The notes under the pieces: generated by a model | The model's input: the letters and a program-made list of their open reading frames with translations, nothing else | Database searches by the model: none | Told to the model about the DNA's origin: nothing | Translations under genes and position numbers: made by a program | Shown here: one piece after another, positions 13,611 to 31,602 of the stretch | How positions within the stretch are numbered: the stretch's first letter is position 1 | Layout of the letters: each line of letters begins with the position of its first letter | Virus record (IMG/VR): IMGVR_UViG_3300028048_000103 | Span: 1-64,000 of that record | DNA from: a virus | Lineage: Duplodnaviria > Heunggongvirae > Uroviricota > Caudoviricetes | DNA: 64,000 bases | Reading direction: 5' to 3' (one strand)

Positions 13611-13726
13611 CAACTGTGATAGGACTCGAACCTATGACATCGGTATTAAAAGTACTAAAATAATTGCTGTTAATTTTCCCTATCGGAAAACTATGTTACG
13701 TGCTCTACCCACTGAGCTACACAGTT
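13611..13726 (-). tRNA. tRNA-like gene with about 40-nt insertion in the anticodon region
   Basis: The reverse complement gives an acceptor AACTGTG/CACAGTT, a D-arm TAGCTCAGTGGGTAGAGCA and a T-arm ATAGGTTCGAGTCCTAT. The central region is about 40 nt too long and contains the hairpin TTTTCC-gatag-GGAAAA. Confidence 0.5.
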
Positions 13727-27814: not shown

Positions 27815-27853
27815 TACTTCGGCTGCGACTCGAACGCAGGACCAACTGCTTAG
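27815..27853 (-). tRNA. 3' exon (positions 35-73) of intron-split tRNA-Arg (anticodon UCU)
   Basis: Reverse complement: CTAA-GCAGT-TGGTC-CTGCGTTCGAGTCGCAG-CCGAAGT-A. It pairs perfectly with the 5' exon at 28408..28441 (acceptor 7/7 including one G-U, anticodon stem ACTGC/GCAGT 5/5). Confidence 0.7.
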
Positions 27854-28407
27854 CTTACCACTATAACTTTCGTTACCAATATAAGACTAAAAATGACCTA
27901 CAGCACAAGAGGATTGCAGTCATTCCGTAACATCCCTTTTATGTTCCTCTTATTTCGGGTCTTTATATTGTTTGTGGTCTGGACTATCCCTTAACCATAT
28001 TGAAATCTTGCAAGATTGGATTAGGGTTCGTTCTTACCCCGAATAGCAGGTCGCTTTCCTGCACAGTTTGTTTTAATTTTAGAATCCAAATTTCAACTTA
28101 GGTTTCTTCCGTCTAGTCTCTACACACTGTCTATTACAAATACTGAAATGTAGCTTAATTGCATATATTTGCCTTCTATGCAATAACGCCTTTTCATTAC
28201 ATTCCCAATTAACACCTTTTGCAAACGAGGTGAGTATTTGTTTTTAACATTGGTTCGGTATTAGCATATATTAACAGGACTCTTCACCTGTCCGACTCAT
28301 ATAGAGTGTCTGATTTGATTTTATACTTAGCTTTCACCGAATTTGGAAGTTTCTACATCTAAAATTTCTTTTAGTGCACTCCTAATTAATTGATTATCAA
28401 TTACTTA
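27854..28407 (-). mobile_element. group I intron (about 554 nt) in the anticodon loop of tRNA-Arg(UCU), inserted after position 34
   Basis: Both flanking tRNA halves match exactly. The minus-strand reading has an R-like element GTAGAGACTA (28108-28117), an S-like GATAGTCCAGACC (about 27975-27990) and a P-like AATTCGGTGAAA (about 28335-28346) in the canonical order. It ends in G before the 3' exon, and the 5' exon ends in U. Confidence 0.6.
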
Positions 28408-28441
28408 AAGGCAGTTGCTCTATCCACTGAGCTACCGAAGC
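28408..28441 (-). tRNA. 5' exon (positions 1-34) of intron-split tRNA-Arg (UCU)
   Basis: Reverse complement: GCTTCGG-TA-GCTC-AGTGGATA-GAGC-A-ACTGC-CTT. Confidence 0.7.
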
Positions 28442-28465: not shown

Positions 28466-28504
28466 TGACCCCTGTGGGATTCGAACCCACGACCCCAACA
28501 TTAA
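28466..28504 (-). tRNA. 39-nt tRNA 3' half (anticodon N-U-U; acceptor AGGGGTC), 3' exon of the second intron copy
   Basis: Reverse complement: TTAA-TGTTG-GGGTC-GTGGGTTCGAATCCCAC-AGGGGTC-A. Same length and junction context (gtaccactataactttcgttacca) as the Arg 3' exon. Confidence 0.5.
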
Positions 28505-28932
28505 CGTACCACTATAACTTTCGTTACCAGTTGCAAACAAGGAGTTTAGCCCTATATTTACATACCTGTTTGTGGTCTGGACTGTATCTTAACCATATTG
28601 AAATCTTGCAAGATACTGTATGAAGAGATTTGCTGAGTTGCACAGCCTGTATCTAACTCCGGTTTCACTGGGAACATTCATACAATAATTTCAACTTAGG
28701 TTCCTCCTGTATAGTCTCTACACACTGTCTAAAGGTATTGCATTCTTGCAACTAAACTATCTCACTCCTTTTAACATTGGCTCGGTATTACCATCAGCAA
28801 CATACTTTCAAATCATTAATCCTCAGTATTCCCAAAGCATTCATTTACTTGTACGTTCTGTTAAGGTTTCACCGAATTAGGGAGGTTCTACATCCGAAGT
28901 TTCCTTCGGTGCACTCAAATTACACATTGTTC
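28505..28932 (-). mobile_element. second group I intron copy (about 430 nt), homologous to 27854..28407
   Basis: Shares four conserved blocks with intron 1: 3'-terminal accactataactttcgttacca, the S-like block at 28567-28612, the R-like block at 28688-28730, and the P-like block plus gtgcactc at 28870-28908. The central regions are divergent. Confidence 0.5.
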
Positions 28933-28967
28933 AAGACCGCTGCATTAGACCACTCTGCCACCTCACC
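28933..28967 (-). tRNA. tRNA 5' half resembling tRNA-Ser(UGA) (class II D-arm), 5' exon of the second intron copy
   Basis: Reverse complement: GGTGAGG-TG-GCA-GAGTGGTCTAA-TGC-A-GCGGT-CTT. This follows the architecture of a bacterial tRNA-Ser(UGA) 5' half. The acceptor GGTGAGG does NOT pair with the 3' half at 28466..28504. Confidence 0.45.
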
Positions 28968-29109: not shown

Positions 29110-29160
29110 AGTCACCATAGTATGCTGCAAGTTGGAATTGAACCAACAACTATATTCAGT
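29110..29160 (-). tRNA. orphan tRNA 3'-half-like element (T-arm GTTGGTTCAATTCCAAC, acceptor TTGCAGC)
   Basis: Good T-arm and 3' acceptor, but no canonical D or anticodon arm upstream. Possibly another split or degenerate tRNA. Confidence 0.25.
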
Positions 29161-29307
29161 TTTTTCATAATCACAGCCTTCGTGACCATATTTTATTTTC
29201 AATTTCACATATTCAATAAAATAATTTGTATTTATCAGTATTGTCAAAGAGCAATTAATTTCATTGCAAATATATAAATCTTTTTTTTAACAACAAAATT
29301 AATTTTA

Positions 29308-29378
29308 GTTGAAGGCAGAGGAATCGAACCTCTATTCTGGGAACCAAAATCCCATGTCTTGCCTTTAGACGAGCCTTC
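29308..29378 (-). tRNA. tRNA-Pro (anticodon UGG)
   Basis: Reverse complement: acceptor TGAAGGC/GCCTTCA, D-stem GTCT/AGAC, anticodon stem TGGGA/TCCCA with loop TTTTGGT, T-arm AGAGGTTCGATTCCTCT. Confidence 0.65.
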
Positions 29379-29405
29379 AATTTATTTCAAAGAACAATTG
29401 TTTAT

Positions 29406-29428: not shown

Positions 29429-29451
29429 TAAATTTTAACATTTTTTTTTTG

Positions 29452-29488
29452 CGGGAATGATAGGATTCGAACCTATAACCTACGGATT
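29452..29488 (-). tRNA. 3' exon of split tRNA-Asn (anticodon GUU)
   Basis: Reverse complement: AA-TCCGT-AGGTT-ATAGGTTCGAATCCTAT-CATTCCC-G. It pairs 7/7 (acceptor) and 5/5 (anticodon stem) with the 5' exon at 29591..29626. Confidence 0.6.
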
Positions 29489-29490
29489 AG

Positions 29491-29562
29491 ACTCAGCAAA
29501 AGGAATCGAACCTTTTTTTGGACTTGCAATGCCACCCGTCCTAACCATTAGACGATACTGAG
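29491..29562 (-). tRNA. tRNA-like element embedded inside the tRNA-Asn intervening sequence
   Basis: Reverse complement: acceptor CTCAGTA/TGCTGAG, D-arm GTCT-AATGGTTA-GGAC, T-arm AAAGGTTCGATTCCTTT. The anticodon-arm region GGTGGCATTGCAAGTCC does not form a canonical stem. Confidence 0.4.
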
Positions 29563-29590
29563 TTGGTTCGTTTCGGTGAACCATTCCGTT

Positions 29591-29626
29591 AACAGTCCGT
29601 TGCACTAACCGTTGTGCTACATTCCC
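29591..29626 (-). tRNA. 5' exon of split tRNA-Asn (GUU)
   Basis: Reverse complement: GGGAATG-TA-GCAC-AACGGTTA-GTGC-A-ACGGA-CTGTT(AA). Confidence 0.6.
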
Positions 29627-31014: not shown

Positions 31015-31095
31015 GTAATTAAATTCTTATTGAATTTAGAAGTCAATGTATCTCATCTTCCTACGGCTTAAAAATCCGAAAAACATACATAGTTG

Positions 31096-31178
31096 TGGGC
31101 ATTGAGAGACTTGAACTCTCACGTCATTCTGACACATGCTCCTTAGGCATGCCTGTCTACCAATTCCAGCAAACGCCC
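31096..31178 (-). tRNA. tRNA-Leu (anticodon AAG), class II
   Basis: Reverse complement: acceptor GGGCGTT/AATGCCC, D-loop AATTGGTAGA, anticodon stem CATGC/GCATG with loop CTAAGGA, long variable arm, T-arm GAGAGTTCAAGTCTCTC. Confidence 0.55.
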
Positions 31179-31250
31179 ATCATTTCATCGTATCACTTTT
31201 ATAAAAACCTCATATGTTTAAAACAACAATGCAAATATATAAATCTTTTT

Positions 31251-31406
31251 TTAAAAACCCAAATTTTTATGTACAAAAATAATGTTTTCTACATCAAAAT
31301 CATCTGTGTAATTCAACACTTCATTCAAAAATGTTTCCATTGTATAACCACTATGGTTTTTAAATTCCTCTTCCAATTGTTTGTGATTTTCCAAAATATT
31401 ATCCAT
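31251..31406 (-). CDS. possible small ORF (about 52 aa; MDNILENHKQLEEEFKNHSGYTMETFLNEVLNYTDDFDVENIIFVHKNLGF)
   Basis: Hand-translated; under 60 aa so absent from the track. It lies between two tRNAs. Confidence 0.25.
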   Translation of the reverse strand: MDNILENHKQLEEEFKNHSGYTMETFLNEVLNYTDDFDVENIIFVHKNLGF

Positions 31407-31429
31407 AATCATTAAATTTTATATTTTTG

Positions 31430-31503
31430 TGGGCAAGGTAGAACTCGAATCTACGGTCTCTTGAATATCAGTCAAGTGCTTTAACCAACTAAGCTACTTG
31501 CCC
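31430..31503 (-). tRNA. tRNA-Ile (anticodon GAU)
   Basis: Reverse complement: acceptor GGGCAAG/CTTGCCC, D-arm TAGCTTAGTTGGTTAAAGC, anticodon stem CTTGA/TCAAG with loop CTGATAT, T-arm GTAGATTCGAGTTCTAC. Confidence 0.65.
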
Positions 31504-31520
31504 TTATTTTTAAAATTTTG

Positions 31521-31602
31521 TGGGCACTGAGAGACTTGAACTCTCACATCCAAAGGATACATGCTTCTAAGGCATGTGTGTCTACCGTTCCACCAAGCAC
31601 CC
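31521..31602 (-). tRNA. tRNA-Leu (anticodon UAG), class II
   Basis: Reverse complement: acceptor GGGTGCT/AGTGCCC (two G-U pairs), anticodon stem CATGC/GCATG with loop CTTAGAA, long variable arm, T-arm GAGAGTTCAAGTCTCTC. Confidence 0.55.

What the first reader, a model, noticed from the sequence alone, without database searches (positions are those of the whole stretch)
27815..28441. tRNA-Arg(UCU) split by a 554-nt group I intron after anticodon position 34
The two tRNA halves are separated by 554 nt and are exactly complementary (acceptor 7/7, anticodon stem 5/5). Together they rebuild a 73-nt cloverleaf with loop CTT|CTAA. Read on the minus strand, the intervening sequence carries group I core-like elements in the canonical order: a P-like AATTCGGTGAAA, an R-like GTAGAGACTA and an S-like GATAGTCC. 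It ends in G, and the 5' exon ends in U. The insertion site (34/35) is the classic tRNA group I intron site. I do not know of self-splicing introns being characterised in phage tRNA genes.
Basis: partly seen in the sequence, partly recalled or inferred. Interest (0 to 1): 0.8.

Follow-up and report, generated by a model that had tools for sequence, protein, structure and literature searches.

The report
Self-splicing intron in phage tRNA-Arg gene
A phage tRNA-Arg(UCU) gene is interrupted in its anticodon loop by a 554-base group I (self-splicing type) intron, one of a family that has spread through many different tRNA genes of large gut and rumen phages; I found no paper describing this in phages.

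Summary
On the minus strand, 28441..28408 and 27853..27815 are the two halves of a 73-nt tRNA-Arg(UCU), separated by 554 nt inserted after U34.

The insert is a group I intron.
- The 5' exon ends in U, which forms a U·G pair with an internal guide (CUU/GAG). The intron ends in G.
- The 3' exon CUAA pairs with UUAG just upstream of the guide (P10).
- P2 to P9 lie in canonical order, with the P3/P7 pseudoknot.

Rfam's general model misses it (16.8 bits against a cut-off of 50). The cause is four long insertions in the P5, P6, P8 and P9 loops. The core is 65-70% identical to compact metagenomic tRNA introns that do pass Rfam. A model built only from four of those matches locus A in all modules.

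At least 49 IMG/VR stretches share its 16-nt R motif; the 36 with all core anchors include introns splitting Arg, Leu, Lys, Ser, Gln, Met/Ile-type and Thr-type tRNA genes. The guide sequence changes to match each exon. Across 20 members, 95.6% of proposed pairs hold and 23 pairs show compensatory changes.

Splicing itself is inferred, not shown. It is a new member of a known kind in a new setting.

The parts
28408..28441 (-). 5' exon of tRNA-Arg(UCU): acceptor 5' strand, D arm, anticodon stem 5' strand and loop C32 U33 U34. Ends in U.
27854..28407 (-). 554-nt group I intron inserted between anticodon-loop positions 34 and 35. No ORF longer than 34 aa inside it.
27815..27853 (-). 3' exon of tRNA-Arg(UCU): C35 U36 A37 A38, anticodon stem 3' strand, variable loop, T arm, acceptor 3' strand and discriminator A. 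No CCA is encoded.
28379..28381 (-). Internal guide sequence GAG. It pairs with exon C32 U33 U34 (28410..28408) to form P1, with the U·G wobble at the 5' splice site.
28382..28385 (-). UUAG, immediately 5' of the guide. It pairs with the first four 3'-exon bases CUAA (27853..27850) to form P10.
28383..28407 (-). P1 extension hairpin (UAAGUAAUUG / CAAUUAAUUA). Its 3' strand overlaps the P10 partner, so the two pairings exclude each other.
28359..28374 (-). P2 hairpin CUAAAA-GAAA-UUUUAG. All six pairs covary in the family.
28345..28349 (-). P3 5' strand CUUCC. It pairs with GGAAG at 28110..28106 and is followed by J3/4 AAA.
28336..28341 (-). It pairs with ACCGAA at 28259..28254 (the 'Q' element).
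28263..28332 (-). P5 (AGC 28332..28330 / GCU 28265..28263) enclosing the first peripheral insertion (about 64 nt of hairpins).
28125..28252 (-). P6 (CAAUGU 28252..28247 / ACAGUG 28130..28125) and P6a (ACAAAUAC / GUAUUUGU) enclosing the second peripheral insertion.
28114..28120 (-). P7 5' strand GAGACUA within the R element, with bulged A28119. G28118 pairs with C27982, the expected guanosine-binding pair.
28106..28110 (-). P3 3' strand GGAAG. It lies between the two strands of P7, which makes the P3/P7 pseudoknot.
27993..28104 (-). P8 (AACC..UUGAAAU 28104..28090 / AUUUCAA..GGUU 28006..27993), enclosing P8a (UUGGAUU / AAUCCAA), the third peripheral insertion and the small palindromic hairpin AUCUUGCAAGAU (28016..28005).
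27981..27992 (-). S element: J8/7 AAGGGA plus P7 3' strand UAGUCC.
27854..27978 (-). P9 domain: ACCAC (27978..27974) pairs with GUGGU (27861..27857). It encloses P9a (CAAUAUAA / UUAUAUUG) with the fourth peripheral insertion, and the hairpin P9b GUAAC-GAAA-GUUAU (27876..27863). It ends in AAG with the terminal G at 27854.

Best explanation
Locus 27815..28441 (minus strand) is a phage tRNA-Arg(UCU) gene interrupted after the wobble base U34 by a 554-nt group I intron of the bacterial tRNA-intron lineage.

Proposed mechanism, inferred from the anatomy:
1. The gene is transcribed with the surrounding minus-strand tRNA array.
2. The intron folds into the P3-P9 catalytic core.
3. The guide GAG pairs with exon C32-U33-U34, giving the U·G wobble at the splice site (P1).
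4. A free guanosine bound at the G-C pair of P7 attacks after U34.
5. The first 3'-exon bases CUAA dock on UUAG (P10), and the terminal G (27854) enters the G site.
6. The 3'-OH of U34 attacks after that G. The exons are ligated into the loop CUUCUAA.
7. Host RNase P, 3' trimming and CCA addition then finish the tRNA.

The intron carries no endonuclease gene. Its core equals that of compact tRNA introns of about 190-270 nt. The additional ~350 nt are four structured insertions in the terminal loops of P5, P6, P8 and P9.

Shown here: exon structure, intron secondary structure with covariation, homology to recognised group I introns, and conservation. Inferred: catalytic activity and use of the tRNA.
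For: (1) The spliced exons form a canonical 73-nt tRNA-Arg(UCU). It aligns across the junction with more than 100 unsplit viral tRNA-Arg(UCU) genes.

(2) Structure counts on 20 family members (alignment A2; counts):
- 95.6% of 1176 cells are paired, against 32-42% when partners are slid by 1-3 columns.
- 23 of 59 pairs change on both sides, and 0 of 500 shuffles reach any measure.
- P1 is paired in 100% of cells, as CUU/GAG, ACU/GGU, CAU/GUG or UUU/GAA depending on the exon.
- All four P10 pairs covary with the 3' exon.
- P2, P3, P4, P5, P8, P9 and P9b contain compensatory pairs.
- The P3 3' strand lies between the two P7 strands, which is the pseudoknot.

(3) The closing stems of the four variable insertions are complementary within each intron more than between introns (0 of 2000 permutations).

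(4) Homology to recognised group I introns:
- The R element of locus A occurs in at least 120 metagenome loci.
- 10 of 20 loci tested reach Rfam Intron_gpI gathering (50.1-76.4 bits); the nine I examined further, all ~200-270-nt, lie in tRNA genes (Leu(UAA) at 34/35, Met-type at 33/34; Thr in L207).
- The core of locus A is 65-70% identical to three of them over 217-254 aligned positions.

(5) A covariance model built only from four of those Leu(UAA) introns finds nothing in the 64-kb window except loci A and B. B scores 106.5 bits, E 1.5e-31. A scores 29.4 bits, E 9.7e-8, plus 17.4 bits. With filters off, A scores 40.2 bits for the 3' module and 29.7 bits for the 5' module.

(6) A compact 186-nt family member (L037) matches the full Rfam model at 34.5 bits, E 2.9e-7.

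(7) The MFE fold of the intron alone recovers P2, P4, P5, P7, P8, P8a, P9a and P9b.

(8) Conservation: there are 2 differences in 627 nt against L011 and L013, while the flanks are about 89% identical.

(9) An intron-plus / intron-minus pair exists in the same lineage. L011's tRNA-Gln carries a 556-nt family member exactly between ...AUUUU and GGUUCCC of the window's uninterrupted tRNA-Gln. This confirms the U(-1) / terminal-G boundaries.

(10) AGA accounts for 142 of 221 Arg codons in 20 large ORFs, and no other tRNA-Arg is present in the window.
Against: - Rfam's curated group I model does not reach its gathering score on locus A: no hit at gathering, and 16.8 bits covering only P3-P6 in E-value mode. 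Fifteen further family loci also stay below it.
- P6 and P7 never vary in my alignment. The family was collected with an exact seed inside that region, so these two helices rest on consensus, not covariation.
- The MFE z-score is modest (-1.94).
- Not every family copy can be functional. Locus B and L031 join halves of two different tRNAs, and L010 lacks the terminal G.
- No RNA data or splicing assay is available.
- The subgroup (IC3-like) was not tested with subgroup models.
Confidence: 0.88

Rival explanations
1. It is a group I intron by descent but no longer splices. On this reading the four long insertions or other changes have inactivated it, and the locus is a dead tRNA-Arg pseudogene carried along in the tRNA array.
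For: The neighbouring copy B (28967..28466) cannot give a tRNA. Another family member (L010) lacks the terminal G. The Rfam score of locus A is sub-threshold.
Against: P1 and P10 of locus A fit its own Arg exons exactly, 3/3 and 4/4 pairs. Every core helix is intact, and P7 is the most canonical of the family. The insertions sit only in terminal loops and have paired closing stems. The 627-nt gene is far better conserved than its flanks in two other contigs. It is the only tRNA-Arg in the window, and AGA is the main Arg codon.
Confidence: 0.08
2. The intron is removed, but only with the help of a protein: a host or phage RNA chaperone or maturase. Alternatively its slow, GTP-dependent splicing is used by the phage to time or gate tRNA supply. 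The intron would then be more than a neutral passenger.
For: The large peripheral domains are conserved in length and in pairing. Multiple copies occur per genome, in several tRNAs with U34. No endonuclease gene that would explain purely selfish spread lies inside.
Against: Nothing in the sequence requires a cofactor. Compact relatives have the same core. No candidate maturase gene was identified. The intronless Gln allele in this very window shows that the introns are dispensable.
Confidence: 0.12
3. The split is an assembly artefact, or an unrelated insertion (transposon, group II intron, or an archaeal-type protein-spliced intron) that merely lies inside a tRNA gene.
For: The intron family is repeated within genomes. 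That can mislead assemblers and may explain the chimeric locus B.
Against: The same 627-nt arrangement is present in three independent assemblies. In the E-value scan of the intron the only intron family matched was the group I model. There is no transposase or other ORF. The insertion site is 34/35 with U(-1) and a terminal G, not the 37/38 site of protein-spliced introns. The group I core is demonstrated.
Confidence: 0.01

Closest known systems
Bacterial and plastid tRNA anticodon-loop group I introns: tRNA-Leu(UAA) at 34/35, tRNA-fMet at 33/34, tRNA-Arg(CCU) and tRNA-Ile(CAU) at 36/37; mostly subgroup IC (PMC13011429; PMC3984707)
   Same: The site is inside the anticodon loop, directly after a U. 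The intron ends in G, and the guide pairs with both loop halves (P1 and P10). No ORF is present. The core sequence blocks are shared (AAAUUCGGxGAA, AAUxCCGAxCCAA, GUGUAGAGACUAGACGG, GAAGGGAUAGUCCAGACCAC, GUGAAAxCUAUAGUGGUAxG). Identity to Rfam-positive metagenomic tRNA-Leu and tRNA-Thr introns is 65-70%, and a model built from the Leu introns hits this locus. From memory, and not tested here, the core also closely resembles the Azoarcus tRNA-Ile ribozyme.
   Different: It sits in a phage genome and in tRNA-Arg(UCU) at 34/35. It is 554 nt instead of about 190-270, because of four structured insertions in L5, L6, L8 and L9, and these push it below Rfam's threshold. It belongs to a phage-borne radiation that occupies at least eight isoacceptors, with several copies per genome.
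Group I introns of phage protein-coding genes (T4 td, nrdB, sunY; Twort; SPO1; crAss-like Delta and Zeta groups; PMC3984707, PMC7886860)
   Same: They are phage-borne self-splicing group I ribozymes. The host phage here is also a large phage of Bacteroidota type: it has a BACON-domain protein, and its helicase is closest, at 34% identity, to Bacteroides phages DAC19/20/23.
   Different: Those introns interrupt ORFs, are mostly of other subgroups and often carry homing-endonuclease genes. This one interrupts a tRNA and has no ORF. No GenBank phage record in INPHARED carries a close relative.
'Enigmatic' introns of Lak megaphage and jumbo-phage tRNA genes (bioRxiv 10.1101/356790; PMC13037316)
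   Same: These are interrupted tRNA genes in large gut-associated phages. The same window also holds the Lak-like kind: tRNA-Asn(GUU) at 29626..29452, with a ~103-nt insert that itself looks like a tRNA.
   Different: The Lak introns were predicted with eukaryotic tRNAscan settings, were tested against Rfam, and were left mechanistically unexplained. The intron here has a demonstrable group I core and splice-site logic.

Membership tests
Group I intron | The 5' splice site follows a U that forms a U·G wobble in P1 with an internal guide sequence. | tested here: met
   Exon CUU (28410..28408) pairs with GAG (28381..28379). The P1 columns are paired in 100% of 20 family members, and the guide changes with the exon: CUU/GAG, ACU/GGU, CAU/GUG, UUU/GAA.
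Group I intron | The intron ends in G (omega G). | tested here: met
   G at 27854. That column is invariant in the 20-sequence alignment. One family member left out of the alignment (L010) lacks it.
Group I intron | P10: the start of the 3' exon pairs with the guide region 5' of the P1 strand. | tested here: met
   CUAA (27853..27850) pairs with UUAG (28385..28382), 4 of 4. In the family all four columns change on both sides with the exon, and 70% of cells are paired. The two chimeric copies account for some of the failures.
Group I intron | Core helices P3, P4, P5, P6, P7, P8, P9 in canonical order, with the P3/P7 pseudoknot. | tested here: met
   95.6% of cells paired against 32-42% with slid partners. 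Compensatory changes occur in P2, P3, P4, P5, P8, P9 and P9b. The P3 3' strand (28110..28106) lies between P7 5' (28120..28114) and P7 3' (27986..27981). P6 and P7 are invariant, so they are supported by consensus only.
Group I intron | Guanosine-binding site: a G-C pair in P7 next to a bulged nucleotide, with conserved R and S elements. | tested here: met
   GAGACUA / UAGUCC with bulged A28119 and the pair G28118-C27982. The R and S blocks are identical or nearly so to those of Rfam-positive introns. The assignment of the site is by analogy with established group I structures.
Group I intron | Match to the curated Rfam model RF00028 at its gathering score (an operational classifier, not a biochemical definition). 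| tested here: inconclusive
   Locus A: no hit at gathering; 16.8 bits, E 0.08, over P3-P6 only. Compact family member L037: 34.5 bits, E 2.9e-7, full model. Sequence relatives sharing the R element: 10 of 20 reach 50.1-76.4 bits. A model built from four of these hits locus A at 29.4 and 17.4 bits window-wide, and at 40.2 and 29.7 bits with filters off.
Group I intron | Guanosine-dependent self-splicing. | not testable with these tools
   Needs an in vitro splicing assay or RNA data.
Group I subgroup IC3 (bacterial tRNA-intron type) | Match to subgroup-specific covariance models, or the subgroup's peripheral architecture. | not tested
   No subgroup models are available here. The compact relatives lack P5abc, P2.1 and P7.1/7.2, which is compatible with IC3. 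The resemblance to the Azoarcus ribozyme is recalled from memory only.
tRNA-Arg(UCU) | Cloverleaf with a 7-nt anticodon loop and anticodon UCU after exon joining. | tested here: met
   ARAGORN on the spliced sequence and on the genomic sequence with the intron option. Identity to unsplit tRNA-Arg(UCU) genes is 88-92%.
Protein-spliced (archaeal or eukaryal type) tRNA intron | Insertion typically at 37/38, with a bulge-helix-bulge motif at the splice sites. | tested here: not met
   The insertion is at 34/35, and the splice sites lie in P1 and P10 of a group I fold. A bulge-helix-bulge search as such was not run.
Group II intron | Match to group II domain models, or a reverse-transcriptase ORF. 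| tested here: not met
   No group II family appears among the Rfam matches up to E 10 on the intron. No ORF longer than 34 aa is present.

The most novel reading that the evidence does not exclude
The intron is part of an actively moving population that retargets itself among phage tRNA genes by changing a 3-nt guide. The preferred target would be the C32-U33-U34 loop shared by tRNAs with U34, reached through reverse splicing or through recombination between intron copies. As a by-product it would shuffle tRNA halves (locus B, L031). Phages may also exploit it, for example to keep the anticodon loops of nuclease-targeted tRNAs (Lys UUU, Arg UCU, Gln UUG and others) absent from precursor transcripts, or to gate tRNA maturation on GTP. 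This would also supply a mechanism for some of the 'enigmatic' tRNA introns of huge phages.
Probability: 0.2. Interest if true: 0.8.

Novelty: new member of a known kind. Interest (0 to 1): 0.6.

Why it matters
Group I introns in bacterial and plastid tRNA genes, and group I introns in phage protein genes, are both textbook cases. Their combination is not.
- A 2014 review states that every phage group I intron then known lies in a protein-coding gene, despite the many phage tRNA genes (PMC3984707).
- Interrupted tRNAs of Lak and other huge phages have been reported only as unexplained introns (10.1101/356790; PMC13037316).

What this finding adds:
- It gives one such class a concrete mechanism.
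- It shows that standard annotation (bacterial tRNA finders, Rfam at gathering) misses both the tRNA and the intron. Phage tRNA repertoires in gut and rumen viromes are therefore undercounted.
- It provides a natural series of guide-sequence retargeting events across at least eight isoacceptors, useful for studying how group I introns move without an endonuclease.
- The compact-to-expanded series (186 to more than 700 nt on the same core) could be of interest for ribozyme engineering.

Tried and rejected
- Rfam on the window at gathering gave tRNAs only. E-value mode on 2.4 kb gave nothing for group I. On the intron alone it gave a weak partial hit.
- I first took the Rfam group I hit in L002 (57.6 bits) as a family member. 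It lies 9 kb from the shared motif and is a different intron, so I dropped it as evidence.
- Fifteen more family loci gave no Rfam group I hit at gathering.
- ARAGORN's second 'tRNA-Arg(tct)' at 29451..29626 looked like a second split Arg gene. Comparison with L011 shows it is tRNA-Asn(GUU) with an unrelated insertion. ARAGORN's 'tRNA-Leu with 425-nt intron' at 31095..31602 simply joins two separate Leu genes.
- blastn of the A and B loci against 50,697 GenBank phage records found only tRNA exon matches.
- The 16-mer scan of species-representative genomes gave 38 hits, but 34 lack the other core motifs. The four real ones are MAG contigs, one of them holding a 16-tRNA array, and are probably phage DNA.
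- I tried to retrieve the Azoarcus ribozyme sequence from papers so as to test the remembered resemblance. The sequence strings were not found and no supplement is held.
- Nine of the ten permitted literature searches found no report of group I introns in phage tRNA genes (one search was the sequence search). The library is incomplete, so absence is not proof.
- A pairing between UGCAC next to the guide and CUGUGCA in the P8 insertion, and between that UGC and the palindromic P8b loop, was considered. It was dropped because the UGC stays constant while the P8b loop changes.

Full report
**What is in the sequence.** Read on the minus strand, 28441..28408 is GCTTCGGTAGCTCAGTGGATAGAGCAACTGCCTT and 27853..27815 is CTAAGCAGTTGGTCCTGCGTTCGAGTCGCAGCCGAAGTA. 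Joined, they make a 73-nt cloverleaf that ARAGORN calls tRNA-Arg(tct) with loop CTTCTAA. ARAGORN with its intron option finds the gene directly: c[27814,28441], intron of 554 nt at position 35. The only slip is that the acceptor stem holds one G·U pair. All 16 ordinary tRNA genes of the window lie on the same strand, in the same 23.4-31.8 kb array. The intron has no ORF above 34 aa.

**Rfam.** At gathering thresholds the window yields only tRNAs. With permissive settings on the intron alone, RF00028 gives 16.8 bits (gathering 50), E 0.08, over P3-P6 only.

**A second copy and a family.**
- 60 nt upstream lies a homologous 428-nt intron (locus B, 28932..28505). It shares long identical blocks with locus A.
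- A 27-mer from these blocks occurs in 13 IMG/VR viral stretches, and a 16-mer from the R element in 49. The source contigs are mostly 100-410 kb.
- The loci examined, with few exceptions, lie in tRNA arrays.
- Applying the rule '5' exon ends in U, intron ends in G', the family members split tRNA-Arg(UCU), Leu(UAA) at 34/35 and at 33/34, Lys(UUU), Ser(UGA), Gln(UUG) at 35/36, Met/Ile-type CAU at 36/37, and Leu(UAG).
- Intron lengths run from 186 to 722 nt.

**Structure.** I cut each member at five conserved anchors and aligned the cores of 20 members together with their exon ends. I then wrote out the group I helices, including the P3/P7 pseudoknot and P10. Counting the pairs gave:
- 95.6% of 1176 cells are standard pairs, against 32-42% when every 3' partner is slid by 1-3 columns.
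- 23 of 59 pairs change on both sides, in 109 cells.
- None of 500 shuffles reaches any of the five measures.
- P1 is paired in every sequence, and the guide follows the exon: CUU/GAG, ACU/GGU, CAU/GUG, UUU/GAA.
- All four P10 columns covary with the first bases of the 3' exon.
- P2 (all six pairs), P3 (four pairs), P4, P5, P8, P9 and the GAAA-capped hairpin P9b contain compensatory changes.
- P6 and P7 never vary. The family was collected with an exact seed in that region, so they say nothing either way.

The closing stems of the four variable regions (P5a, P6a, P8a, P9a) differ in sequence in almost every member. They are more complementary within an intron than between introns (0 of 2000 permutations each). 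The unconstrained MFE fold of locus A's intron recovers P2, P4, P5, P7, P8, P8a, P9a and P9b. One search gives the window coordinates of every element.

**Link to recognised group I introns.**
- The compact 186-nt member in a tRNA-Ser(UGA) gene (L037) aligns with the full Rfam model at 34.5 bits, E 2.9e-7.
- Locus A's R element GTGTAGAGACTAGACGG occurs in at least 120 metagenome stretches.
- Of 20 tested, 10 carry a full-length RF00028 match at or above gathering, 50.1-76.4 bits.
- The nine of these that I examined further are introns of about 200-270 nt. Four interrupt tRNA-Leu(UAA) at 34/35, four interrupt Met-type CAU tRNAs at 33/34, and one interrupts a tRNA-Thr. The first two are the classical bacterial sites (PMC13011429).
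- Aligned with three of them, locus A shares the guide/P2/P3/P4/P5 block, the P5'/P4'/P6 block, the R block, the S block and the P9b-P9-terminal G block. Identity is 65-70% over 217-254 positions.
- The rest of locus A consists of four insertions, in L5, L6, L8 and L9.

A covariance model built only from four of the Leu(UAA) introns finds nothing in the 64-kb window except loci B and A. B scores 106.5 bits, E 1.5e-31, full length. A scores 29.4 bits, E 9.7e-8, for P2-P6, plus 17.4 bits and the R element. With filters off, locus A's 3' module (P8'-S-P9-terminal G-exon) scores 40.2 bits and its 5' module 29.7 bits. Locus A therefore has the core of the bacterial tRNA-intron lineage. The long insertions are what defeat the general model.

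**Signs that the gene is in use.**
- Two other assemblies (L011 from a 107.9-kb contig, L013 from a 363-kb contig) carry the same 627-nt split gene with only two differences, both in the P8 insertion. The flanking DNA is about 89% identical.
- P1 and P10 of locus A fit its own exons perfectly.
- The window has no other tRNA-Arg.
- AGA makes up 142 of 221 arginine codons in 20 large ORFs of this 30% G+C sequence.

**Evidence of mobility.**
- L011 carries a 556-nt family member in tRNA-Gln(UUG), exactly between ...ATTTT and GGTTCCC of the window's uninterrupted tRNA-Gln (29308..29379). This is an intron-plus / intron-minus pair that confirms the predicted boundaries.
- Core similarity does not follow host tRNA. 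The nearest relatives of the three Arg(UCU) introns in the alignment sit in Leu and Lys genes.
- None of the introns inspected holds an endonuclease ORF. L011 does have a free-standing HNH-type ORF between its tRNA genes.

**Host and distribution.**
- The window encodes a BACON-domain protein, a thymidylate synthase-DHFR fusion and a UvrD-type helicase. The helicase's best matches among isolates, at 34% identity, are 167-179-kb Bacteroides phages.
- No GenBank phage record carries a close relative of the intron.
- In 185,579 species-representative genomes only four MAG contigs do, and one of them holds a 16-tRNA array.

**Literature.**
- The 2014 review of bacterial group I introns states that all phage introns known then lie in protein genes (PMC3984707).
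- The Lak megaphage preprint reports tRNA introns as new for phages and 'enigmatic', some of them containing a tRNA (10.1101/356790).
- A 2026 survey repeats this for jumbo phages (PMC13037316).
- A 2026 paper treats tRNA group I introns in Patescibacteria and other bacteria, not phages (PMC13011429).
- I found no paper that assigns phage tRNA introns to group I. The library is incomplete.

**Verdict.** The mechanism is the ordinary group I pathway and the intron belongs to the known tRNA-intron lineage, so this is a new member of a known kind. The setting (phage tRNA genes), the scale of the radiation, the retargeted guides and the expanded architecture make it moderately interesting. Catalysis remains to be shown.

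Noticed in passing
window 28466..28967 (minus strand): Locus B is a chimeric split gene. It joins the 5' half of tRNA-Ser(UGA) (28967..28933), a 428-nt intron of the same family (28932..28505) and the 3' half of tRNA-Lys(UUU) (28504..28466). The joined exons do not fold as a tRNA, and the intron's P10 partner fits the Ser exon (GAAA), not the Lys exon. The relative L011 has an intact Ser(UGA) gene with a 722-nt intron, followed by tRNA-Pro, tRNA-Asp, an HNH ORF and tRNA-Lys; about 2 kb is missing here. The cause is either recombination between intron copies or an assembly collapse. L031 is a second chimera of this kind.
   Followed up: partly
window 29452..29626 (minus strand): This is a tRNA-Asn(GUU) whose body is interrupted right after the anticodon loop by a ~103-nt insert. 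The insert contains a tRNA-like sequence (ARAGORN tRNA-Ala(tgc) at 29490..29562). ARAGORN with introns allowed miscalls the outer gene Arg(tct). L011 has the uninterrupted Asn gene. The arrangement resembles the 'tRNA inside a tRNA intron' reported for Lak and jumbo phages. The mechanism is unknown.
   Followed up: partly
window 13611..13726 (minus strand): Far from the main array lies a tRNA gene (Rfam tRNA 46.4 bits over 116 nt; ARAGORN Lys(ttt)) with an insertion of about 35-43 nt in the anticodon arm.
   Followed up: no
window 29123..29177 (minus strand): A mini tRNA-like element with only an acceptor stem and a T arm (Rfam tRNA 23 bits, below threshold). It lies between tRNA-Gln and locus B.
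   Followed up: no
window 29308..29379 (minus strand) and L011 7161..7788: The window's tRNA-Gln(UUG) is the intronless allele of a gene that, in the close relative L011, carries a 556-nt intron of the same family at 35/36. The exons differ at one base.
   Followed up: yes
window 28005..28016 (minus strand) and the same position in family members: The small hairpin AUCUUGCAAGAU in the P8 domain changes among family members only in ways that keep its centre palindromic (UGCA, AGCU, CGCG, CAUG, GCGC). A hairpin cannot pair its two central bases. This hints at a loop-loop contact, dimerisation or a DNA-level site.
   Followed up: no
L008 and L046 (P5 insertion of their introns): Some family members carry T-arm-like sequences (GGTTCGAATCC flanked by complementary arms) inside the P5 peripheral insertion.
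   Followed up: no
L011 9608..10433: A free-standing HNH-type endonuclease ORF lies between tRNA genes in the close relative and is absent from the window. It might mobilise neighbouring intron-containing tRNA genes.
   Followed up: no
L002 29..309; L010 3013..3405; L020 5687..6059; L043 5509..5910: Related viral contigs also hold an unrelated group I intron that passes Rfam (57.6 bits) and full-length tmRNA genes next to their tRNA arrays.
   Followed up: no
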